Made by a program: the position numbers and the translations under genes. The notes under the pieces are model-generated. The model worked only from the letters and a program-made list of their open reading frames with translations. It was not told the DNA's origin and did not search any database. DNA of 64,000 nt from Candidatus Stahliibacteriota bacterium (GTDB lineage Bacteria > Hydrothermota > Tepidihabitantia > SM23-42): the NCBI GenBank assembly GCA_030602565.1, contig JAUVZL010000003.1, positions 4,160-68,159 on the forward strand, given 5' to 3'. Of the stretch, positions 37,964 through 49,943 are shown piece after piece. The number at the start of each line of letters is the position of its first letter. Positions within the stretch are counted from its first letter, which is position 1.

Positions 37964-38170
37964 TTGATTAACTATTGAACCCGAGTTTTATCCTAATAAT
38001 CATTAGTATCTTTTTCATAGAATCTCCAAGATGAGTATTATACTTTGATTTGAGGGAAAGTCAACCATTCCTCACTCGTTACTGCGAGCGTAAGCGCCTG
38101 CCCCATCAGTTAGTAAACATACGGGGAAGCAATTTCTGGTAATACTATAGTTATAGAGCTTGCGAGATAC

Positions 38171-38225
38171 CCCCTCACCCTCACCCTCTCCCCCTTATAG
38201 GGGGAGAGGAAAAAGGAGAGGGGGA
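38171..38225. repeat. GA/CT-rich hairpin repeat, copy 4 (CCCCTCACCCTCACCCTCTCCCCC-ttat-AGGGGGAGAGGAAAAAGGAGAGGGGG)
   Basis: Nearly identical to the copies at 41774 and 42454. Confidence 0.75.
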
Positions 38226-40576: not shown

Positions 40577-40776
40577 TTAATACAAAAATGGGAAAAGCAA
40601 CGAGGGGACTGCCCGTATGTTTAGTGACTGACGTGGCAGGTATGACTGGATTGCCCGATCAAGTCGGGCAATGACAGGGAGGAGTGATCGGGCAATGACG
40701 CAGGTGTATGGATTAGGCACTGATTTCTCTATTGTCATTATCCAACTTGATTGGATAATCCAGAGGAGTAGTAAGT

Positions 40777-41001
40777 GGGGTCAAATCTCTACATTGAACA
40801 AGACAATTCAAATAATGTTGGTGCATGAGTTCCGGCTGATGCTTGTTCAATGTAGACAGGCTGACCGAGAATACCGGAATTTAGCCTTTAGGCTTTCACA
40901 AATAAACAAAAAGTCTTGAAATTTCATTGTTCTTTTTGCGCGAGACAAGTCTCGCTACTCCATTTTTTGAATTCTCGGTCAGCCTGTAGAGATTTGACCC
41001 C
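40777..41001. mobile_element. MITE-like element, copy 2 (GGGGTCAAATCTCTACA..AGGCTGACCGAGAAT / ATTCTCGGTCAGCCTGTAGAGATTTGACCCC)
   Basis: About-31-bp terminal inverted repeats matching copy 1; lies between the two paralogous genes. Confidence 0.55.
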
Positions 41002-41017
41002 AGACGGTACCCAAAAC

Positions 41018-41734: not shown

Positions 41735-41773
41735 TTTTCTAGCAACACTCTATAGTACGACAACGAGGGGACT

Positions 41774-41829
41774 CCCCCTCACCCTTACCCTCTCCCCCTA
41801 TAAGGGGGAGAGGAAAAAGGAGAGGGGGT
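41774..41829. repeat. GA/CT-rich hairpin repeat, copy 5
   Basis: CCCCTCACCCTTACCCTCTCCCCC-tata-AGGGGGAGAGGAAAAAGGAGAGGGGG. Confidence 0.75.
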
Positions 41830-42042
41830 GAATGGAGATCGCAATGACAAGAAAGAGTATATCGTGATAACACAGGAGAGAATATTTCATGATGACCAAC
41901 TTTTTTTGTCATTGCGAGGTCGCTGAAAGCGGTCGCGGCAATCTCACAAATTATTATTGAGATTGCTTCGTCACTTCGTTTCTCGCAATGACAGAAAGGG
42001 GAAAATTCCTCGCAATGCTTTATCATTATTTGCACACCACAA

Positions 42043-42399: not shown

Positions 42400-42453
42400 A
42401 TAGTATTTTAAGCATTTATTTTAGAAAATCAAGTAGCCTGCAACCAAGGACTT

Positions 42454-42508
42454 CCCCTCACCCTTACCCTCTCCCCCTTACAGGGGGAGAGGAAAAAGGA
42501 GAGGGGGT
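42454..42508. repeat. GA/CT-rich hairpin repeat, copy 6
   Basis: CCCCTCACCCTTACCCTCTCCCCC-ttac-AGGGGGAGAGGAAAAAGGAGAGGGGG. Confidence 0.75.
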
Positions 42509-42550
42509 ATTTGTAGCTTGATTTTTTCGCAGGATTCAATATGCTAAGAT

Positions 42551-43219
42551 ATGATACGACAATATATCAAGGAAATCAAACAGTTGGATCTTGAAACTGT
42601 CATTATTGTTATTTACTCGACTTTTGTACTTCTGTTTGGTATATATCTACGTCGTATGCATTTTATCTTTTCGACGCGTGAAGAGATCTTCCTTGATAGA
42701 TTAATTATTATGGGTATATTATACGGCATTTCACCGTTGCCATTATTTTTCTTGTTCAAACGCAAGCCCAGAGATTATGGGGTCAGTCTGGGTAGGGTTA
42801 GGCAATGGCTAAGAGAAGTCGCGGTTTTTTATCTTATAATGGTATTCATTCTCTTGGTGGTATTCAAATTCACCGGCATGAAAGATTATTACCCTTTATA
42901 CCGCAAGGCGGCAAGAGGTATGAACTATTTTCTGCTGTATCAAGGCATACAACTATTCCACATGTTCACCTGGGAGTTCTTTTTCAGAGGGTTTATGCTA
43001 TTCGGACTGGAGAAGAAGTTTGGCAAGGCGAGTATCCTTGTTCAAACAATCCCTTTCGCCATTATGCATTACAGAAAAAAACCTTTAGAAGCCTATGGAT
43101 CGATATTTGCCGGCATATTTTTGGGTATCCTTGGTTTACGTTCCCGAAGCTTCTTACCCTGCGCTCTACTACATTTTCTGGTCGCTCTAAGTGCGGATTT
43201 ACTGGGGATAGTGTTTTGA
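42551..43219 (+). CDS. CPBP-family (CAAX/Abi) intramembrane metalloprotease
   Basis: EFFFRGF and AIMHY motifs with multiple TM helices. Confidence 0.75.
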   Translation: MIRQYIKEIKQLDLETVIIVIYSTFVLLFGIYLRRMHFIFSTREEIFLDRLIIMGILYGISPLPLFFLFKRKPRDYGVSLGRVRQWLREVAVFYLIMVFILLVVFKFTGMKDYYPLYRKAARGMNYFLLYQGIQLFHMFTWEFFFRGFMLFGLEKKFGKASILVQTIPFAIMHYRKKPLEAYGSIFAGIFLGILGLRSRSFLPCALLHFLVALSADLLGIVF

Positions 43220-43369
43220 GTAATTTATTTTCTTGATCTGATTTATATTATCGTGGCTAAACAAGGGTATTTTGGCTTCAAGGTGAATAGAAAAGATTAT
43301 TTCAACTGGTCAAAGGAGGATTTAATCCAAAGGCAATGCATAAACGATAAAACCGAAGGATTAACCTTC

Positions 43370-43397
43370 TTGACATAAATCATGAGAAAGATATAGT
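43370..43397 (+). promoter_or_regulatory. Promoter TTGACA-16 nt-TATAGT ahead of the AlbA_2 fragment and fic
   Basis: Consensus hexamers followed by a GGAGG RBS and an ATG at 43426. Confidence 0.5.
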
Positions 43398-43425
43398 TCA
43401 TACATGGAGGTAGTGAAATAAGTGC

Positions 43426-43626
43426 ATGAAAAAATTGACTGAATCAGAAGTAGTCGAATTAAAACCAAGTTTATCACAGGCTGATAGGATTGTGGAGACG
43501 GTGGCGGCGATGGCGAACAGAAATAAGGGTGTTTATTGTTTCTGTCTACAGAACTTGACAAGACGTCTATTTCTGTTTATAATGAAAAACAGAAATAGCG
43601 AAGTGCCTTATTTCTGTTTCAAATAG
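43426..43626 (+). pseudogene. 5-prime fragment of a COG2865-type gene (AlbA_2/Schlafen N-terminus, about 44 aa), truncated
   Basis: ESEVVELKPSLSQADRIVETVAAMANRNKG matches the AlbA_2 start; the remainder of the ORF is unrelated and runs into the palindrome. Confidence 0.55.
43567..43626. promoter_or_regulatory. Perfect 12-bp inverted repeat (CTATTTCTGTTT-ataatgaa-AAACAGAAATAG) plus a third half-site, 13 nt ahead of the fic RBS
   Basis: AT-rich palindrome without a GC stem or T-tract; reads as an operator rather than a terminator. Confidence 0.45.
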
Positions 43627-43638
43627 AGGAGGCTCGAA

Positions 43639-44820
43639 ATGCGCAGTGGCTGGTGGCTTAAACAACTTTCCGGTGAATTGGGATATCAAGCATTTGTGCC
43701 TAATAAGTTGCCCTATGAAAGCACACCACAAATTGATGAGCTTATTCTGGATCTGCTTTCCGAGGCAAGCATATTATTGGGACGCCTTGATGGTATTACT
43801 GAACTCTTACCTGACCCAAATTTTTTTATCTTAATGTATATAAAGAAAGAAGCAACATCTTCAGCACAAATAGAGGGAACACAGGCTACCTTTGCTGATT
43901 TGTTAAAGCATGAAGCAAAAATTAAGGATCCAAAGATTCCAGATGATGTTAAGGAAATTGTTAATTATATAAATGCAATGAATTATGGTGTAAGAAGATT
44001 GGAAACACTGCCATTGTCACTACGACTTATTAGAGAAATACATAAGATTCTTCTAAAAGATGTCAGAGGACAAGAGCGATATCCTGGCGAATTCAGAAAA
44101 TCACAAAATTGGGTTGGAGGTAGGACAATAAATCTCGCGACCTATGTTCCACCACCTGCCCATGAATTACCGGGACTTCTTGATAATTTCGAGAAATTCT
44201 TGCATCTAAAGACGAAGATGCCAATTCTCATTAAAACTGCTTTAACTCATGCACAGTTTGAGCTCATTCATCCTTTTTTGGATGGAAATGGCAGGACTGG
44301 AAGACTTCTTATAACTTTTTATCTATACCATGAGAAAAAATTAAACAGACCTCTGCTTTATCTTTCAGATTATTTTCATAGATACAGACAGGAATATTAT
44401 GATCATTTGAATGCTATTTCCAAACGCGACGATATTGAAGGCTGGATAAAATATTTTTTGGATGGCGTCATCACTGTCTCCAAGGATGCTATAATTCTCG
44501 CTCAAAAAATAATCAATCTGAGAAAAGAAGACGAGAAAAAAATAATGACCTCAGGGAAAGCGGCGAAAAGCGGAATTAAACTCTTAGATTATCTATACAC
44601 AAACCCGATTGTAACAGGAAATCTCACTGAGGAAATTACCGGTTTATCTCCCTCTAATGCAAGAAATTTGATAAACAAATTTATTAAGATGGCTATTTTA
44701 AGACAAATGGATAAAAGACAGCGGGGAAAACGGTTTGTCTATGAACGATATATGGCATTATTTTCTGATGAATCACAGAATTCTAGCGAGAGGTTAATCA
44801 GAAAACAGAAAGAAGAATGA
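43639..44820 (+). CDS. fic: Fic-family protein (class II, with inhibitory S-x-x-x-E-G helix and C-terminal wHTH)
   Basis: HPFLDGNGRTGR active-site motif; SSAQIEG inhibitory motif; 393 aa. Confidence 0.85.
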   Translation: MRSGWWLKQLSGELGYQAFVPNKLPYESTPQIDELILDLLSEASILLGRLDGITELLPDPNFFILMYIKKEATSSAQIEGTQATFADLLKHEAKIKDPKIPDDVKEIVNYINAMNYGVRRLETLPLSLRLIREIHKILLKDVRGQERYPGEFRKSQNWVGGRTINLATYVPPPAHELPGLLDNFEKFLHLKTKMPILIKTALTHAQFELIHPFLDGNGRTGRLLITFYLYHEKKLNRPLLYLSDYFHRYRQEYYDHLNAISKRDDIEGWIKYFLDGVITVSKDAIILAQKIINLRKEDEKKIMTSGKAAKSGIKLLDYLYTNPIVTGNLTEEITGLSPSNARNLINKFIKMAILRQMDKRQRGKRFVYERYMALFSDESQNSSERLIRKQKEE

Positions 44821-45233
44821 TAATGATGCTTGAACGTCAGTCAAGATCTTTTAATCCACTGATAGCAAAGGCTTTTTTCTGGATAAAATATATCGAGGAA
44901 GTCGGCACCGGGACAAATAAGATAATTGAGTGGTGTAAGGATTGGGGCATTGCGGAACCGGATTTTGAGTGTGCAGGGTCAAGCATTGTGATTACAATTA
45001 GAAAATCCAAACTGACAGAAGAATATTTAACGAATCTGGGCTTAAATGAACGAGAATTGGAAATTATTGAGCAAATAAAAGCAAATAAAAAGACGACAAG
45101 TGGTGAGATTCAAAAATTGTTTAATGTAAGGAGAAAAGCAGCAAATAGTTATCTAAAAAGATTGATTGATTTGAAACTTATTAAGAGGATGGGAACAGGC
45201 AAGGCGGTTTACTATGTTCTCACGGCTAAATAG
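44817..45233 (+). pseudogene. 3-prime fragment of a COG2865-type gene (end of HATPase_c_4 plus wHTH), overlapping the fic stop by 4 nt
   Basis: NPLIAKAFFWIKYIEEVGTGTNKII is the conserved HATPase_c_4 tail; C-terminal wHTH; may still be expressed as a 138-aa protein. Confidence 0.5.
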
Positions 45234-45527
45234 TTTTCACAGTCTTGCGTTTCCCTTGCGTTTCCTTTGCGTCAAATATGCGTCAATTTTGTATCAGATT
45301 TTGCGGTGCATATACGGGGAATCTACGACATATGCGTACGATTGACGGACAATTATGCATTATAGGAATAACCATGCTTGAGCGGCAGACTTTTCAGAAT
45401 AAAGATTTGGTTCTTAAAGTATCACCAAATTATAGCCCAAAGAAATTTGACCCGAATAATAAGGAGAAAATTAGTAAAAAAGATTATAGCAATTGGTCAG
45501 ATTTAGAATAATGAAAAATGAAAAGCG

Positions 45528-45832
45528 GTGTATGAGAAGTATAATAATGATAATGAAGGCAGAAATAAACAAGGGCTGGATGGGGGTGAAGAACAAATTT
45601 GGTGACGGCATTTATAAGATGATATGTTATAAGATTCTGGATTCCCGCCTCCGCGGGAATGACAATGTCGGAAATGAACACGGGAATGAACCTGTACAAC
45701 TTCGTTTTACGGGGCAGGCATAAGGTGTTAGGGAATGACCCGGGATAACTTCGTTTTACGGGGCAGGCATAAGGTGCCAGGGAATGACAGTCCTCCCTTT
45801 TCCGTCATTCCTGCGAAAGCAGGAATCTAAAG
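45528..45832. repeat. Repeat segment A: about-120-bp unit, palindrome CTGGATTCCCGC-ctc-GCGGGAATGAC, two tandem 49-bp units (ACTTCGTTTTACGGGGCAGGCATAAGGTGCCAGGGAATGAC) and palindrome GTCATTCCTGC-gaaa-GCAGGAAT
   Basis: Duplicated at 47815-48110 with about 95% identity. Confidence 0.75.
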
Positions 45833-45844
45833 AATAGATAGTAG

Positions 45845-46132
45845 ATGACAAAATTTTATGTCTACATTTTAGCCAATAAGAGAAATGGAACCTTGTACAT
45901 CGGCGTAACCAATAATTTGATTAAAAGAGTATATGAGCACAAAAATAATTTAGTTAAAGGCTTTACTCAAAAATATAATGTCCATAAATTGGTATGTTAT
46001 GAAGTATTTGATAATGCGTACGATGCCATTACAAGAGAAAAACGGATAAAAAAGTGGAAAAGACAATGGAAAGTAGCGTTGATCGAAAAGGAGAATCCTA
46101 ATTGGGAAGACTTATTTGAGACACTATTGTAA
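45845..46132 (+). CDS. GIY-YIG nuclease-family protein (COG2827-like), 95 aa
   Basis: FYVYILANKRNGTLYIGVTNNLIKRVYEHK motif. Confidence 0.8.
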   Translation: MTKFYVYILANKRNGTLYIGVTNNLIKRVYEHKNNLVKGFTQKYNVHKLVCYEVFDNAYDAITREKRIKKWKRQWKVALIEKENPNWEDLFETLL

Positions 46133-46407
46133 GGATCCTGGATTCCTGCTTTCGCAGGAATGACAAGGAGGAAAAGACAGGAATGCTAAGGAGGGCAGGA
46201 ATGACCCCGTACAACTTCGTTTTACGGGGCAGGCATAAGGTGCCAGAGAATGACAAGTAGATAAACCAATGATTGATAATTATTTCGCTATTTCAACAAT
46301 CCTTTTTTCCTAAAGCAGTGTAAAATAGGTAATGTCGTATGCAGTAGTTCAATTACCATTGATTAGAAAGTGGGGCATAACATAATGTAAGAAAATAAAA
46401 CATCATA

Positions 46408-46435
46408 TTGACAAATTATCTAACATGAATATAAT
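46408..46435 (+). promoter_or_regulatory. Promoter TTGACA-16 nt-TATAAT for the antitoxin-toxin operon
   Basis: Consensus hexamers, AAGGAGATG RBS, flanking ATTAT/ATAAT dyad. Confidence 0.5.
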
Positions 46436-46452
46436 AACTAAAAGGAGATGAA

Positions 46453-47241
46453 ATGTCTAAAGTTGGTGAAAGAATAAAGAAATTACGAAAAACTGCCGGT
46501 TTTACCCAGGAAAGACTTGCTAAATTACTGGGTATTTCAAGGCCCGCAATTTCGCAGATTGAAAATAGCGAACGAAAAATCTGTGCTGAGGAATTGCAGA
46601 AATTGGCAGAGATTTTTAATGTCTCGGTTGATAGTTTGCTAAATCCTGAGAAAGAGCCAGCAGTGATTATAAGAGAGAACCGAGCAAATTATAAACCAAG
46701 AGTGGCTAAACAACGAATTAGAGTCAATGTACCTCAGAAGAACCTTGAAAAATTCAAGGAAGTTTTTCTCTATATTCTCTCTAAGGTAGGTTCAAAACCG
46801 AATGTTGGCGAAACCGTAATTTACAAGCTACTCTATTTTCTTGATTTCGATTATTATGAAAAATATGAAGAGCAGCTAATTGGTGCAACCTATATCAAAA
46901 ATCGCCACGGTCCTACGCCTTTAGAATTCAAGAAGATAGTTGAAAAGATGATAAAAGAAAAAGAGATTGAAAAGGTTGATAGCAAATATTTTGAATATCC
47001 TCAGACAAAATACTTACCACTGCGAAAACCTGATTTTTTGAAGTTGAAAGCAACTGAAATTGAGGTCGTTGATGAAGTTCTGAATAAGCTTTCGGATATG
47101 AACGCAAATCAGATAAGCGAATATTCTCATAATGATGTGCCCTGGTTAACAACCGGAGAAAATAAAGTCATTGAATATGAATCCGTGTTCTATAGAACAC
47201 CGCTTTATTCAGTAAGAGAGTATAGTGGAAATATTCAATGA
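46453..47241 (+). CDS. HTH_XRE plus Panacea (DUF4065)-domain antitoxin, PanA-type
   Basis: N-terminal LRKTAGFTQERLAKLLGISRPAISQIEN HTH; C-terminal KLLYFLDFDYYEKYEEQLIGATYIKNRHGPTP Panacea/SocA-like core. Confidence 0.65.
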   Translation: MSKVGERIKKLRKTAGFTQERLAKLLGISRPAISQIENSERKICAEELQKLAEIFNVSVDSLLNPEKEPAVIIRENRANYKPRVAKQRIRVNVPQKNLEKFKEVFLYILSKVGSKPNVGETVIYKLLYFLDFDYYEKYEEQLIGATYIKNRHGPTPLEFKKIVEKMIKEKEIEKVDSKYFEYPQTKYLPLRKPDFLKLKATEIEVVDEVLNKLSDMNANQISEYSHNDVPWLTTGENKVIEYESVFYRTPLYSVREYSGNIQ

Positions 47242-47596
47242 GATATTCATACTTCCGGAATTTGCGAAAGATTTAAAGCACCTTCTTAAAAGATTTGGAA
47301 CTCTTGAAGACGACCTGAAAATATTCATTGAAAAAGAATTGTATCTATACCATAAATTAAAAATAGATAACAAAGGCGTATTTCGAATTGAAGGTTTAGG
47401 ATATGAAAAATTTAAAATCTATAAAGCAAAGAAATTCGCCTGCCGTTCCCTCCGCGGTAAGGGCGTACATTCGGGTATCCGAGTAATATATTCGTACGAT
47501 GAGGAATCAGATAAAGTTGAGCTAATTGAAATCTATTATAAAGGTGACAAGAAAATTGAGGACCGGAACCGGATACACAAACACTATGAAAAATGA
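47225..47596 (+). CDS. RelE/ParE-superfamily toxin-like protein
   Basis: GIRVIYSYDEESDKVELIEIYYKGDKK matches the RelE/ParE C-terminal beta-sheet motif; 17-nt overlap with the antitoxin gene. Confidence 0.6.
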   Translation: MEIFNEIFILPEFAKDLKHLLKRFGTLEDDLKIFIEKELYLYHKLKIDNKGVFRIEGLGYEKFKIYKAKKFACRSLRGKGVHSGIRVIYSYDEESDKVELIEIYYKGDKKIEDRNRIHKHYEK

Positions 47597-47814
47597 GTTA
47601 AATTTCAATCTTACAACAAAAATTTAACATGAATAAAAGAAATACGAGACGAAAGTGGAAGAGGTGGTTAAAGAAAGACCTGTTTTCTGAATTTGGATAT
47701 CTGGTAAAATTGAAAGTGGTGTTGCAATGATTTTCAACATTTTGAAAGAAAAAGAAAATGGTTTATGACATCTGCAACGTCCTCGGCGCGGCAGGGTTTG
47801 AGTATTTGAGAGAA

Positions 47815-48110
47815 GTGTATGAGAAGTATAATAATGATAATGAAGGCAGAAATAAACAAGGGCTGGATAGGGGTGAAGAACAAATTTAGTGGCGGCATTT
47901 ATAAGATGATATGTTATAAGATCCTGGATTCCTGCTTTTGCAGGAATGACCCGGGATAACTTCGTTTTACGGGGTAGGCATAGGGTGCCAGGGAATGACC
48001 CGGGATAACTTCGTTTTACGGGGCAGGCATAGGGTGCCAGGGAATGACAAGTAAGATAAAGCAGTAAAAATTCAGCTGGATTCCCTGGTCAAGCCAGGGA
48101 ATGACAGTTT
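47815..48110. repeat. Repeat segment A-prime (second copy of segment A, plus palindrome variant CTGGATTCCCTGG-tcaag-CCAGGGAATGAC)
   Basis: Self-comparison with 45528-45832. Confidence 0.75.
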
Positions 48111-48188
48111 ACCTTTTTTAGATTGTAATCCGTATTCTAATAATTGATAACTTTTCTCAATCTTAAATCTGCAATCTAAAGTCTGAAA

Positions 48189-49748
48189 TTACTTCGCTAT
48201 CTCAACTACTCTTTTTTCTCGTATTAGCGTGACTTTGATCTGTCCAGGGTATTGCGTTTCTTTTTCGATACGACGGGCAACTTCCTGAGCAAGATTTTCA
48301 GCTTCAATATCAGATATTTTTTCGGGCTGGACAATTACTCTAATTTCTCGTCCTGCCTGTATGGCAAAGACCCTTTCCACACCATCGAAAGAAGACGCAA
48401 GTTCTTCCAGTGTATTCAAGCGTTTGACGTACGCCTCAATGCTTTCGCGTCTCGCGCCAGGTCTGGAACCAGAGATTGAATCAGCTATTTCCACGATCCC
48501 CGCATATGGTGAGGTGGGCTTGATCTCTTCGTGGTGTGCTTCAATTGAATTGACAATAACTTCAGTTTCGCCAAATTTACTTGCAATTTCAGCACCTACG
48601 TGAGCGTGTGAACCTTCGATGTTTTTGTCAGCCACTTTGCCCAAGTCATGAAGCAATCCAGCCCGTTTCGCAACCGTTGCATCCAAACCTAATTCCTGAG
48701 CAAGGAGTGCCGAGAGATTGGCGACTTCTTTGGAATGCTGAAGAAGATTTTGACCGTAACTCGTACGGTATTTCATTCTGCCAAGGTAACTGATGATCTC
48801 TTGGGCAATACCGATAATGCCCATTTCCATAATCACATCTTCCCCCGTGTTCTTTATTAGCGTATCAAGTTCAGTGCGTGATGCTTTGACGACTTCCTCA
48901 ATTCTGGTTGGGTGTATCCGACCGTCAGAGATTAGTTTCTCCATTGCCATACGGGCGATTTCACGCCGGATTGGATCAAAGCATGAAAGAGAAATGCTTT
49001 CAGGTGTATCGTCAATAATAACTTCAACTCCAGTAAGGTTCTCAAACGATCTGATATTCCTGCCTTCCCGACCGATAATGCGCCCTTTCATTTCATCCGA
49101 AGGGATACCAACTACTGAAATCGTTGTTTCTGCAGTATGGGAAGTAGCACAGCGTTGGATTACCTGCAAGATTATTTCGCGCGCAGTGATTTCGGCTTTA
49201 GCCTTAGCTTCATCTTTGATTTGATTTATCAATGCCGCAGCTTCGTGTCTTGCTTCTGCTTCAAGGTTCTTCTTTAGTGCATTTTTGGCTTCTTCCTTTG
49301 ATAGATTGGCGATTTTTTGGAGGGCGGTATTCTGTTCTTTTATCATCTGGTCAAAACGCTCTGATTTTGCGTGGATGATCCGCTCTTTGTTTTGAAGGTT
49401 GTGTTCTTTTGTCAGAAGCTCTTTCTCTTTATCAACGATGAGGTGCTCACGCCGTCCTAAAACTATTTCTTTTTCAACAAAGCGCTTTTCGGCTTTTTCA
49501 ATTTCTTTTCTTTTGGAAGCAGTTTCTTTCTCAAACCTTAGCTTTTCCTGATACCACTGTTCTTTGGCAGTTATTTCAGAGGATTTTTTGTAGTTCTCCG
49601 CTTCTTTTTTTGCCTCTTCGATCATTTTTGATGCTTCGAGAGAGGCATTACTCAATTTGGTTTTACCAAATTTTATGTAAAAGTAAATGACTAAAGCAAC
49701 GGCAAGAAAAGCAATGCCGATGCCGATGAATATTTCTGGTAATATCAT
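48189..49748 (-). CDS. rny: Ribonuclease Y
   Basis: N-terminal TM helix, coiled coil, KH domain, HD domain (HSKEVANLSALLAQELG...LLHDLGK). Confidence 0.9.
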   Translation of the reverse strand: MILPEIFIGIGIAFLAVALVIYFYIKFGKTKLSNASLEASKMIEEAKKEAENYKKSSEITAKEQWYQEKLRFEKETASKRKEIEKAEKRFVEKEIVLGRREHLIVDKEKELLTKEHNLQNKERIIHAKSERFDQMIKEQNTALQKIANLSKEEAKNALKKNLEAEARHEAAALINQIKDEAKAKAEITAREIILQVIQRCATSHTAETTISVVGIPSDEMKGRIIGREGRNIRSFENLTGVEVIIDDTPESISLSCFDPIRREIARMAMEKLISDGRIHPTRIEEVVKASRTELDTLIKNTGEDVIMEMGIIGIAQEIISYLGRMKYRTSYGQNLLQHSKEVANLSALLAQELGLDATVAKRAGLLHDLGKVADKNIEGSHAHVGAEIASKFGETEVIVNSIEAHHEEIKPTSPYAGIVEIADSISGSRPGARRESIEAYVKRLNTLEELASSFDGVERVFAIQAGREIRVIVQPEKISDIEAENLAQEVARRIEKETQYPGQIKVTLIREKRVVEIAK

Positions 49749-49943
49749 GGCTACCCCTAACTTTCATAAATAAAACTATCAAATTAAACGTCCCCGCCTG
49801 TGTCGTGTGGGCAAAAGTCTCTGAACCCAGGTTAAAGGTGGGAGCCTGTCGACTACGAGAAATTCCCATAGCCGAACCGAGCTCCCTACAGATGGGTGTT
49901 GGCTCAAGACTAAATACCCATCACGAGCACGGCAGAGAACGAA

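What the first reader, a model, noticed from the sequence alone, without database searches (positions are those of the whole stretch)
45528..48220. Accessory island bounded by duplicated segments and a second copy of the rny 3-prime end (att-like direct repeats)
A 33-bp sequence at 46278-46310 is about 80% identical to the last codons and stop of rny at 48187-48220 (AATTAYTTCGCTATYTCAAC...CTTTTTTC). Together the two copies bracket the 1.9-kb TA module plus repeat segment A-prime. Segment A (45528-45832) and A-prime (47815-48110) are about 95% identical, and each carries conserved palindromes and two tandem 49-bp units. The GIY-YIG gene lies between the first segment A and the rny-like repeat. 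The pattern fits serial site-specific insertions at the rny 3-prime end that regenerate the gene end, although no integrase is present.
Basis: seen in the sequence. Interest (0 to 1): 0.55.

Follow-up and report, generated by a model that had tools for sequence, protein, structure and literature searches.

The report
Hairpin-repeat gene islet beside rny
The duplicated segments are real, but they belong to a known system: a small GIY-YIG single-strand DNA nuclease (Ssn) with its hairpin repeats, forming a strain-variable 5-kb islet of toxin-antitoxin and defence genes after the rny gene of an uncultured WOR-3 bacterium, and the evidence does not point to an integrase-type insertion.

Summary
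All the repeats are confirmed. Segments A and A-prime share a 111-nt head (107/111), a hairpin and 49-bp units. The 33-nt copy at 46280-46312 is a true rny 3' end (EKRIVEIAK*).

The palindromes are Ssn-related motifs (NTS/dRS3-like hairpins). The GIY-YIG gene is an Ssn-family member in the published hairpin-ssn-hairpin arrangement (Chenal 2025).

In about 25 related candidate division WOR-3 loci, rny is followed within 85-250 nt by a convergent Rce1-like gene. So all of 43220-48188 is an accessory islet: SoFic, a broken regulator, ssn, a PanA-type toxin-antitoxin pair and repeat arrays.

The two "duplications" are one collinear unit present twice (rny end, UTR, 49-bp units, hairpin, head).

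A 99.3%-identical strain lacks exactly 46256-48106 (1,851 bp). That indel is bounded by a 14-nt hairpin half-site repeat, not by the rny ends. The rny-like copy lies inside it and matches another lineage's rny end better (31/33 against 27/33).

No integrase is present, and no other related locus has a second rny end.

Best reading: two versions of a recombination hot spot stacked in tandem, in a Neisseria-NIME-like array. This is a new member of a known kind.

The parts
42551..43219 (+). Rce1-like CAAX protease, the core gene on the left flank. In relatives it lies 85-250 nt from the rny stop, convergent with rny.
   Evidence: Pfam PF02517; synteny in L082-L085, L089-L094 and others
43220..48188 (.). 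Whole accessory islet (4.97 kb) between the convergent core genes rce1 and rny. GC is 34-38% against 40-46% in the flanks.
   Evidence: Empty sites in about 25 related loci; composition
43639..44820 (+). SoFic-type Fic protein (defence cargo). It lies between a weak N-terminal AlbA_2 fragment (43426-43530) and a C-terminal fragment (44817-45233) that look like one broken regulator gene.
   Evidence: Pfam Fic_N and Fic; PADLOC SoFic E=2e-119; AlbA_2 E=8e-4
45528..45638 (.). Head module H, copy 1 (111 nt). It has no homologue in any of the 135 fetched loci.
   Evidence: 107/111 to 47815-47925; BLAST against all loci
45639..45663 (-). SRM/NTS-like hairpin P1 (GTCATTCCCGCGGAGGCGGGAATCC on the minus strand)
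45664..45788 (-). Degenerate half-site module x (27 nt) plus 49-bp units U1 and U2. On the minus strand each starts with the hairpin left half GTCATTCCC.
45804..45827 (+). SRM hairpin P2, upstream of ssn. It is the only one oriented on the plus strand.
   Evidence: single-strand DNA fold -7.8 kcal/mol, z=-4.1
45845..46132 (+). ssn: 95-aa single-domain GIY-YIG protein of the Ssn family (site-specific single-strand DNA nuclease)
   Evidence: PF01541 E=1e-17; more than 8000 homologues at 55-91% identity across phyla; hairpin flanks conserved; family described in PMC11893778
46141..46164 (-). SRM hairpin P3, downstream of ssn. It is the perfect inverted copy of P2.
   Evidence: I1: 24 nt, 100%
46165..46254 (-). 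Two degenerate half-site modules (z) and 49-bp unit U3
46242..46255 (.). 14-nt direct repeat GCCAGAGAATGACA, the distal boundary of the indel relative to L088
46280..46312 (-). Displaced rny 3'-end remnant (last ~10 codons plus stop, EKRIVEIAK*), followed by a shortened UTR and tail at 46255-46279
46386..47612 (+). Mobile two-gene TA cassette: consensus promoter 46408-46435, HTH-XRE+Panacea antitoxin 46453-47241, and an overlapping 123-aa partner 47225-47596 (probably HigB-2/RelE-like)
   Evidence: Pfam; 75-82% nucleotide identity to the same cassette in unrelated contexts L128, L132, L133; promoter; weak HigB-2 profile hits, E 0.04-0.07
46256..48106 (.). 1,851-bp block present in the window but absent from the 99.3%-identical strain L088
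   Evidence: a simulated deletion reproduces the L088 junction
47815..47925 (.). Head module H', copy 2
47926..48048 (-). SRM hairpin P' and 49-bp units U4 and U5
48079..48105 (-). SRM hairpin P4 (9-bp stem variant GTCATTCCCTGGCTTGACCAGGGAATC). Its left arm is the proximal copy of the 14-nt indel repeat (48093-48106).
48106..48188 (-). Resident rny 3' UTR, 100% identical in L001 and L088 and 90% in L084
48189..49748 (-). rny (RNase Y), the core gene on the right flank. 6S RNA (49787-49941) and zapA lie upstream of it.

Best explanation
**What it is.** The region is a strain-variable islet in the convergent rny/rce1 intergenic gap of a candidate division WOR-3 bacterium. It is built on an array of Ssn-related hairpin motifs (SRM; NTS/dRS3-like), and the resident ssn gene sits in the canonical hairpin-ssn-hairpin arrangement. 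This is the same kind of structure as the Neisseria intergenic mosaic (NIME) arrays.

**The repeats.** The two repeats are one collinear unit present twice. In the rny direction the unit reads: rny end, UTR, tail, 49-bp units, hairpin, 111-nt head.
- Copy D2 (48221 down to 47815) is contiguous with rny.
- Copy D1 (46312 down to 45528) is interrupted by the ssn unit and starts with a foreign-looking rny end.

**Proposed mechanism.** Alternative versions of this locus are exchanged between strains by recombination anchored in the flanking core genes, with crossovers reaching into the last ~50 nt of rny. One such event was one-sided: a homologous anchor on one side and an illegitimate joint at 46312/46313 on the other. 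It stacked two versions in tandem (a TA version next to rny, then an ssn/SoFic version) instead of replacing one with the other. That left a stranded rny end.

Within the array, modules are gained and lost at the short GTCATTC.. half-sites. The 1,851-bp TA block that differs from strain L088 is one example.

By analogy with the Neisseria enzyme, Ssn would bind these hairpins on single-stranded DNA and cut just upstream. This chops incoming DNA at module boundaries and favours such joints.

**Shown:** the anatomy, the empty sites, the indel boundaries, the affinity of the stranded rny end to other lineages, the crossover in the rny 3' end (L084 against L134), and the absence of an integrase.

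**Inferred:** the one-sided recombination, the direction of the L088 difference (insertion or deletion), and any role of Ssn cleavage.
For: - **Ssn/SRM identity.** The gene encodes a 95-aa single-domain GIY-YIG protein. Y7, Y18 and E65 are invariant in the family alignment; Y6, Y17 and E64 are the catalytic residues mutated in the 94-aa Neisseria SsnA. Of 84 homologous genes from nearly all bacterial phyla, 61 have an upstream GTCAT-hairpin, 64 a downstream inverted one and 50 both. At control positions 2 kb away the counts are 1/120, 1/120 and 0/120.
- **Island.** rny and rce1 are adjacent in about 25 related loci. The same gap holds only a 480-bp repeat array in L084, an array plus ssn in L088 and L134, and two ssn genes plus an ORF in L086.
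- **One collinear duplicated unit.**
- **Indel against L088.** It is bounded by the 14-nt half-site repeat, and a second 263-bp indel also ends at GTCATT.
- **Stranded rny end.** It matches L082/L083 at 31/33 and its own gene at 27/33.
- **Crossover in rny.** L084 and L134 show 0-4 mismatches per 60 nt along rny, 7 in the last 60 nt, and no similarity after the stop.
- **Other points.** The TA cassette occurs as a self-contained 1.2-kb unit in unrelated contexts elsewhere. No integrase was found. GC is low across the island. NIME arrays are described as dynamic, as recombination end-points and as possible gene-insertion sites in PMC1797815.
Against: - Only one near-identical strain (L088) is available, and its contig ends inside ssn. 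The direction of the change rests on outgroups (L084, L134) whose arrays are themselves fluid.
- The illegitimate joint at 46312/46313 has no recognisable donor. The 73 nt at 46313-46385, the 202 nt at 47613-47814 and the head H have no homologue in any fetched locus.
- The five hairpins do not match the published degenerate SRM search pattern literally: 0 hits, because of a compensated C-to-T stem variant.
- Nothing here shows that this Ssn cuts these sites, that the organism is transformable, or that Ssn takes part in rearrangement.
- The link from rny to the TA block runs through 234 nt of repeats that only the source assembly spans.
Confidence: 0.6

Rival explanations
1. **Integrase-type site-specific integration.** Elements carrying a mimic of the rny 3' end integrate serially into the rny end. 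They regenerate the gene and leave the old end as the distal att site. The integrase has been lost or acts in trans, as with a cis-mobilisable element.
For: - Two direct copies of the last ~10 codons of rny bracket 1.9 kb of cargo.
- The resident rny end carries two synonymous changes (GAG, AAG) not seen in most relatives, while the stranded copy has the common form.
- A recombination boundary lies in the rny 3' end in L084 against L134.
Against: - There is no integrase in the island or nearby.
- The strain-level indel is bounded by hairpin half-sites, with the rny-like copy inside it.
- L088 lacks the block yet has the supposedly element-borne rny end and UTR at 100% identity, and L084 shares that UTR.
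- The duplication extends far beyond 33 nt, covering the whole 0.4-kb unit.
- No second rny end occurs in about 20 related loci.
- No third rny-end copy occurs at the Rce1 side, which serial insertion would predict.
Confidence: 0.1
2. **Hairpin-directed cassette capture.** A circular or linear intermediate carrying the TA block was inserted at an SRM half-site. The agent would be an SRM-specific activity: Ssn-generated ends, or a dRS3-type IS110/Piv recombinase encoded elsewhere. The array would then act as a gene-capture platform. The rny end was part of the donor molecule, which was excised from another strain's rny-downstream island.
For: - The 1,851-bp indel has a 14-nt half-site repeat at both ends, and a circular permutation of the block gives a natural order: rny end, UTR, hairpin, units, head, TA.
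- A second indel also ends at GTCATT.
- On the rny strand every array module starts with GTCATTC.
- In L132 the same TA cassette sits 74 nt from an SRM hairpin.
- Neisseria dRS3 repeats are integration sites of filamentous phages through a transposase, and gene insertion into arrays was proposed there.
Against: - A deletion between two 14-nt repeats explains the L088 difference equally well.
- No such recombinase is found in the 64-kb window.
- Ssn is known only as a nuclease.
- Only 1-2 of 4 TA-cassette contexts have an adjacent SRM-like hairpin.
- This is a single example.
Confidence: 0.2
3. **Assembly artefact.** The tandem arrangement is a chimera of two strain haplotypes, one with TA after rny and one with ssn after rny, joined through the shared repeats during metagenome assembly.
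For: - The window seems to come from a metagenome-assembled contig: the PanA protein is on an 80.7-kb NCBI contig.
- Independent short contigs of the same run break exactly at the repeats (L001 ends at 48078, L127 spans 46217-47844).
- A strain without the block coexists in nature (L088).
Against: - The unusual junction (rny-like end to TA upstream region) and the spacer-to-H' junction are confirmed at 100% by L127.
- D1 and D2 differ every 20-30 nt, so ordinary k-mers can tell them apart.
- The longest exact match between the two rny ends is 8 nt, too short to cause a false join.
Confidence: 0.07

Closest known systems
Ssn/SRM system (NTS-ssnA-NTS; Chenal et al. 2025, Nat Commun, PMC11893778)
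   Same: - A single-domain GIY-YIG protein of about 95 aa.
- It is flanked on both sides, in inverted orientation, by hairpins of the form GTC-ATTCCnGC-loop-GCnGGAAT-C.
- More hairpins cluster around neighbouring genes.
- The family is found across bacterial phyla.
   Different: - The host is an uncultured WOR-3 bacterium.
- The stem carries a compensated C-to-T/G-to-A variant that escapes the published degenerate search pattern.
- Most sites in the array are half-sites heading 49-bp units.
- Activity and any role in transformation are untested here.
Neisseria intergenic mosaic elements (NIME: dRS3 hairpins separating 50-150-bp RS units) and minimal mobile elements (Bentley et al. 2007, PMC1797815)
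   Same: - Arrays of hairpin-delimited short units in an intergenic gap.
- Array length and content differ between close strains.
- Different cargo genes sit between the same two conserved genes in different strains.
- Recombination end-points fall in or beside the array.
   Different: - NIME arrays were reported as Neisseria-specific.
- Here the units are bounded by hairpin halves rather than by complete dRS3 repeats.
- The cargo is TA and defence genes rather than surface antigens or restriction systems.
REP/BIME repeats with RAYT (IS200/IS605-like HUH) transposases
   Same: A small nuclease gene is flanked by the same hairpins that are scattered or clustered elsewhere, and the enzyme recognises the hairpin on single-stranded DNA.
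   Different: The enzyme fold is unrelated (GIY-YIG, not HUH). No strand-transfer activity is known for Ssn.
Integrase-mediated islands at gene 3' ends, and tandem accretion of cis-mobilisable elements
   Same: - Cargo sits at the 3' end of a housekeeping gene.
- A direct repeat of the gene end is present.
- Two modules lie in tandem.
   Different: - No integrase is present.
- The repeat is part of a 0.4-kb duplicated unit.
- The strain indel does not end at the gene-end repeats.
- The arrangement is not recurrent in relatives.
PanA (Panacea-domain) type II toxin-antitoxin modules
   Same: An HTH-XRE plus SocA/Panacea antitoxin gene overlaps a small downstream partner gene, with its own strong promoter. 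The pair is found as a portable two-gene unit in many phyla.
   Different: The partner has no family assignment, only weak HigB-2/RelE-like profile hits.

Membership tests
Ssn nuclease family (cd10448) | Single-domain GIY-YIG protein of about 94 aa | tested here: met
   95 aa; PF01541 covers residues 3-76, E=1.2e-17, with no other domain
Ssn nuclease family (cd10448) | Catalytic Tyr, Tyr and Glu (Y6, Y17, E64 in N. meningitidis SsnA) | tested here: inconclusive
   Y7, Y18 and E65 are invariant in a 24-sequence family alignment, a one-residue offset from the 94-aa SsnA. I had no Neisseria sequence for a direct alignment.
Ssn nuclease family (cd10448) | Gene flanked 5' and 3' by inverted SRM hairpins | tested here: met
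   P2 (45804-45827) and P3 (46141-46164) are 24 nt and 100% complementary. The same arrangement is found in 50 of 84 homologues against 0 of 120 controls.
Ssn nuclease family (cd10448) | Hairpins match the published degenerate SRM pattern HGTCWYN(0-2)YYVSBRHN(0-5)WNVSBRGN(0-2)RNCYNB | tested here: not met
   There are 0 hits in the window. My implementation does match canonical NTS sequences and 45 of 84 homologue flanks. The hairpins agree with the 28-nt NTS consensus at 24-26 positions, by my own count from the sequences. They keep the GTC before the palindrome and the C after it, which the paper found critical.
Ssn nuclease family (cd10448) | Assignment to CDD cd10448; tblastn E below 1e-10 to N. 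meningitidis SsnA | not testable with these tools
   No CDD library or Neisseria sequence is available. Only a distant hit to the UPF0213 structure 1zg2 was found (E=1e-3).
Ssn nuclease family (cd10448) | Sequence-specific cleavage of single-stranded DNA next to the hairpin | not testable with these tools
   This needs biochemistry. The hairpins do fold as single-stranded DNA (-7.8 to -10.6 kcal/mol, z -2.8 to -4.5).
NIME-like mosaic array | Arrays of short repeat units separated by the hairpin repeat | tested here: met
   Five 49-bp units, several degenerate modules and five full hairpins lie in 45639-48105. The units are headed by half-sites rather than by full hairpins.
NIME-like mosaic array | Array length and content vary between close strains at a syntenic position | tested here: met
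   Compared: the window, L088 (99.3% identical), L084 and L134 (97.6% to each other), and L086
Integrase-type genomic island at a gene 3' end | Tyrosine or serine recombinase in or next to the element | tested here: not met
   No such domain in any island ORF or neighbouring ORF
Integrase-type genomic island at a gene 3' end | Presence/absence polymorphism ends at the att (gene-end) repeats | tested here: not met
   The indel against L088 is 46256-48106 and is bounded by a 14-nt hairpin half-site repeat.
Integrase-type genomic island at a gene 3' end | Recurrent use of the same att site in related genomes | tested here: not met
   Only the window has a second rny-end copy among the related loci scanned.
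Type II TA, PanA class | Panacea-domain antitoxin adjacent to a toxin gene in one operon | tested here: inconclusive
   SocA_Panacea E=4.6e-19 and HTH_3 E=2.3e-16. The two genes overlap by 17 nt. The partner has no Pfam, NCBIfam or PADLOC hit, only HigB-2 profile hits at E 0.04-0.07. The pair is conserved in L128, L132 and L133.

The most novel reading that the evidence does not exclude
Ssn-related hairpin arrays may be gene-capture platforms found across bacterial phyla. In this reading, cassettes such as this PanA toxin-antitoxin pair or SoFic are inserted and removed at hairpin half-sites. The ends would come from Ssn cutting single-stranded DNA, or from a hairpin-specific recombinase. The 1,851-bp half-site-bounded block, which still carries a stray rny end from its donor locus, would be a caught-in-the-act example.
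Probability: 0.2. Interest if true: 0.65.

Novelty: new member of a known kind. Interest (0 to 1): 0.38.

Why it matters
**What it adds.**
- It places the recently described Ssn nuclease/hairpin system, and a NIME-like mosaic array, in an uncultured candidate phylum (WOR-3). NIME arrays were once thought specific to Neisseria.
- It gives a natural strain-to-strain polymorphism in which a 1.85-kb cargo block begins and ends at hairpin half-sites.
- That is the kind of evidence needed to test the old Neisseria hypothesis that these arrays promote insertion and exchange of neighbouring genes.

**Use for annotation.** It shows that small GIY-YIG genes with GTCATTCC..GGAATC hairpins mark recombination hot spots rather than integrase-type islands.

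**What it does not do.** It reveals no new kind of system.

Tried and rejected
**Searches that found nothing**
- An exact look-up of the Ssn protein found no record.
- The U-unit and H-segment patterns are absent from viral contigs. H, the 73-nt pre-TA segment and the 202-nt spacer have no homologue in any of the 135 fetched loci.
- The published degenerate SRM pattern gives 0 hits in the window. I therefore used a generic GTCAT-hairpin test with position controls.
- Rfam finds only a sub-threshold FtrB match over hairpin P2 (31 bits against a gathering score of 66). I treated it as chance.
- The 49-bp units and H do not fold better than shuffled sequence (z -0.7 to +1.2), so I dropped the idea that they are structured RNAs or extra hairpins.

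**The toxin partner**
- It has no hit in Pfam, NCBIfam or PADLOC. A profile of four homologues gives only HigB-2 at E about 0.05.

**Tests of the att model**
- I looked for a third rny-end copy near rce1, as serial insertion would predict. None exists.
- I looked for second rny ends in related loci. None exists.

**The TA cassette and hairpins**
- I checked whether the TA cassette is regularly next to SRM hairpins elsewhere. This was clear in only 1 of 3 other contexts, so I make no claim.

**Other**
- A REP/RAYT-like new transposon was my first thought for the hairpin-flanked GIY-YIG gene. The literature search showed that the system is already described.

Full report
**1.

Segment A (45528-45832) and segment A-prime (47815-48110) share three kinds of module:
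- a 111-nt head, identical at 107/111;
- a 25-nt hairpin, identical at 20/25, with stem changes that keep the pairing;
- 49-bp units, identical at 42-48/49.

Tandem Repeats Finder reports 2.2 copies of the 49-bp unit in each segment. A fifth unit lies at 46206-46254.

The "95% identity" applies to about 235 nt. Segment A has an extra 27-nt module, and the distal ends are different hairpins.

The 33-nt copy at 46280-46312 matches the rny end at 27/33. An 18-mer search with up to 3 mismatches finds only these two sites in the window, with 0.11 expected. On the minus strand the copy reads EKRIVEIAK-stop, against EKRVVEIAK-stop for rny. It is a real fragment of an rny 3' end.

**2. The palindromes and the GIY-YIG gene are a known system**

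The gene at 45845-46132 encodes a 95-aa protein that consists only of a GIY-YIG domain. Perfect 24-nt inverted hairpins flank it: GTCATTCCTGCGAAAGCAGGAATC and its complement.

More than 8000 homologues exist at 55-91% identity. I fetched 80 genome loci covering nearly all bacterial phyla. Nearly all show the same layout: a GTCATTCCnGC-loop-GCnGGAATCCAG hairpin upstream and the inverted hairpin downstream.

| Test | ssn homologues (84 genes) | Control positions 2 kb away (120) |
|---|---|---|
| Upstream hairpin | 61 | 1 |
| Downstream inverted hairpin | 64 | 1 |
| Both | 50 | 0 |

(All counts.)

A literature search led to Chenal et al. 2025 (PMC11893778):
- SsnA of Neisseria meningitidis is a 94-aa GIY-YIG enzyme.
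- It binds the NTS hairpin, CGTCATTCCCGCGMAVGCGGGAATCYRG, an extended form of the dRS3 repeat. It does so only on single-stranded DNA and cuts a few nucleotides upstream.
- It lowers transformation by DNA that carries these sites.
- Its homologues across phyla are flanked by "Ssn-related motifs" (SRM).

The window's hairpins agree with the 28-nt NTS consensus at 24-26 positions, by my own count from the sequences. They keep the critical GTC before the palindrome and the C after it. They carry a compensated C-to-T stem variant, so the published degenerate search pattern finds none of them. I report that as a feature tested and not met in the literal sense.

All five full hairpins of this type in the 64-kb window lie in 45640-48105. 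Hairpins with other stems occur at 40.65-40.76 kb and 41.84-42.0 kb.

**3. It is an island, and the hot spot is the rny-rce1 gap**

RNase Y homologues place the organism in candidate division WOR-3. In about 25 related loci, rny is followed after 85-250 nt by a convergent Rce1-like gene. In the window that gene is at 42551-43219, so the whole of 43220-48188 (4.97 kb, GC 34-38% against 40-46% in the flanks) is accessory.

The islet carries:
- a SoFic-type Fic gene (PADLOC E=2e-119), sitting inside a broken regulator gene;
- the ssn unit;
- a Panacea-type toxin-antitoxin pair;
- the repeat arrays.

The same gap is variable elsewhere:

| Locus | Content of the rny-rce1 gap |
|---|---|
| L084 | a 480-bp hairpin/unit array only |
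| L088, L134 | an array plus ssn |
| L086 | two ssn genes plus an ORF |

**4. The two duplications are one duplicated unit**

Read in the rny direction, both copies run in the same order: rny end, UTR, short "tail", 49-bp units, hairpin, 111-nt head.
- Copy D2 is contiguous with rny.
- Copy D1 has a shortened UTR and is interrupted by the hairpin-ssn-hairpin unit between units U3 and U2.

On the rny strand, every module of the array begins with the hairpin left half, GTCATTC.

**5. Strain comparison**

Contig L088 is 99.3% identical to the window over 9 kb. It lacks exactly 46256-48106 (1,851 bp). That block contains hairpin P4, U5, U4, P', H', the TA pair, the rny-like end and the tail.

The block is bounded by a 14-nt direct repeat, GCCAG[A/G]GAATGACA, at 46242-46255 and 48093-48106. 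Deleting the block in silico reproduces the L088 junction. A second 263-bp difference also ends at GTCATT.

So the rny-like copy lies inside the polymorphic block rather than at its boundary.

The resident rny end and its 83-nt UTR are 100% identical in L088 and 90% identical in L084. The stranded copy resembles the rny end of another lineage (31/33 to L082/L083).

L084 and L134 carry rny–array arrangements like that of L088 (in L134 and L088 followed by ssn), which favours insertion in the window's lineage. A deletion between the 14-nt repeats in L088 is not excluded.

**6. The rny 3' end is nevertheless a recombination boundary**

L084 and L134 are 97.6% identical through rny, with 0-4 mismatches per 60 nt. 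They have 7 mismatches in the last 60 nt and no similarity after the stop.

Versions of the downstream island are therefore exchanged with crossovers reaching into the last codons of rny.

Three points argue against an att/integrase mechanism:
- no integrase;
- no second rny end in about 20 related loci;
- no third copy near rce1.

**7. The TA cassette**

Nucleotide similarity to other genomes (75-82%) is limited to 46386-47612. This stretch holds the promoter (a perfect TTGACA-16-TATAAT), the HTH+Panacea gene and the overlapping 123-aa gene. In those genomes the cassette sits in unrelated housekeeping contexts.

It is a portable two-gene unit. The partner gives only weak HigB-2/RelE-like profile hits.

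**8. Explanation**

Best supported (about 0.6):
- This is a NIME-like Ssn/SRM array at a recombination hot spot.
- Two versions of the locus are stacked in tandem by a one-sided recombination: a homologous anchor in a core gene and an illegitimate joint at 46312/46313.
- Modules are gained and lost at hairpin half-sites.

This fits the Neisseria literature, in which such arrays are dynamic, mark recombination end-points, and were proposed as sites where array-flanked genes are inserted (PMC1797815).

Rivals:
- hairpin-directed capture of a circular or linear cassette (0.2);
- integrase-type serial insertion (0.1);
- assembly chimera (0.07). This is weakened because L127 independently confirms the odd junctions, but the 234-nt repeat link to rny is spanned only by the source assembly.

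**9. Verdict**

The feature is a new member of a known kind. Interest is moderate. Its value lies in the half-site-bounded cargo polymorphism and in extending Ssn/NIME-type arrays to an uncultured phylum.

Noticed in passing
window 43426-43530, 43639-44820, 44817-45233: A regulator gene of the AlbA_2 + HATPase_c_4 + winged-helix type appears split. A weak N-terminal fragment and a C-terminal fragment flank a SoFic-type Fic gene (PADLOC E=2e-119), as if the Fic gene had replaced the regulator's middle.
   Followed up: partly
window 40647-40700, 40734-40763, 41838-41995: Further hairpins with the same GTCAT..ATGAC frame but different stems (GGATTGCCCG.., GGATTATCC.., GTCATTGCGAGG..) lie in two other intergenic gaps. 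The same stem variants occur next to rny in L084 and L088. No second ssn gene is present in the window.
   Followed up: partly
window 41768-41830 and 42452-42510 (also 38169-38195): A second, unrelated palindromic repeat family (CCCCTCACCCTTACCCTCTCCCCCT..AGGGGGAGAGGAAAAAGGAGAGGGGGT) flanks the YidD gene region.
   Followed up: no
window 40777-41005: A long inverted repeat (GGGGTCAAATCTCTACA ... TGTAGAGATTTGACCCC, with inner arms as well) encloses about 200 nt. It could be a miniature inverted-repeat element.
   Followed up: no
window 49787-49941 (-): A 6S RNA gene lies between zapA and rny (Rfam RF00013, 68 bits).
   Followed up: yes
L084 against L134 (rny 3' end): Two contigs with 97.6% identical rny genes diverge over the last ~45 nt of rny and completely downstream. 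One has only a repeat array before rce1; the other has an array plus ssn. This is a within-species polymorphism at the same hot spot.
   Followed up: yes
L090, L093, L098, L126 (about 2.4-2.7 kb past the rny stop): In several relatives whose rny-rce1 gap is empty, an ssn homologue with tandem half-site arrays lies beyond rce1/yidD. The ssn cluster therefore occupies different intergenic sites in different lineages.
   Followed up: no
window 45518-45545 and 47806-47835 (+): Both copies of the head module H begin with a promoter-like site (TATAAT / AATAAT). In copy 1 it points through the array towards ssn. In copy 2 it points antisense into the rny 3' end.
   Followed up: no
P0007 and P0107 (Ssn homologues): Some database Ssn proteins carry N-terminal extensions such as MSFLRRQES or MSSPRKRGS. 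These are translations of the upstream hairpin, so the gene starts were called too early.
   Followed up: no
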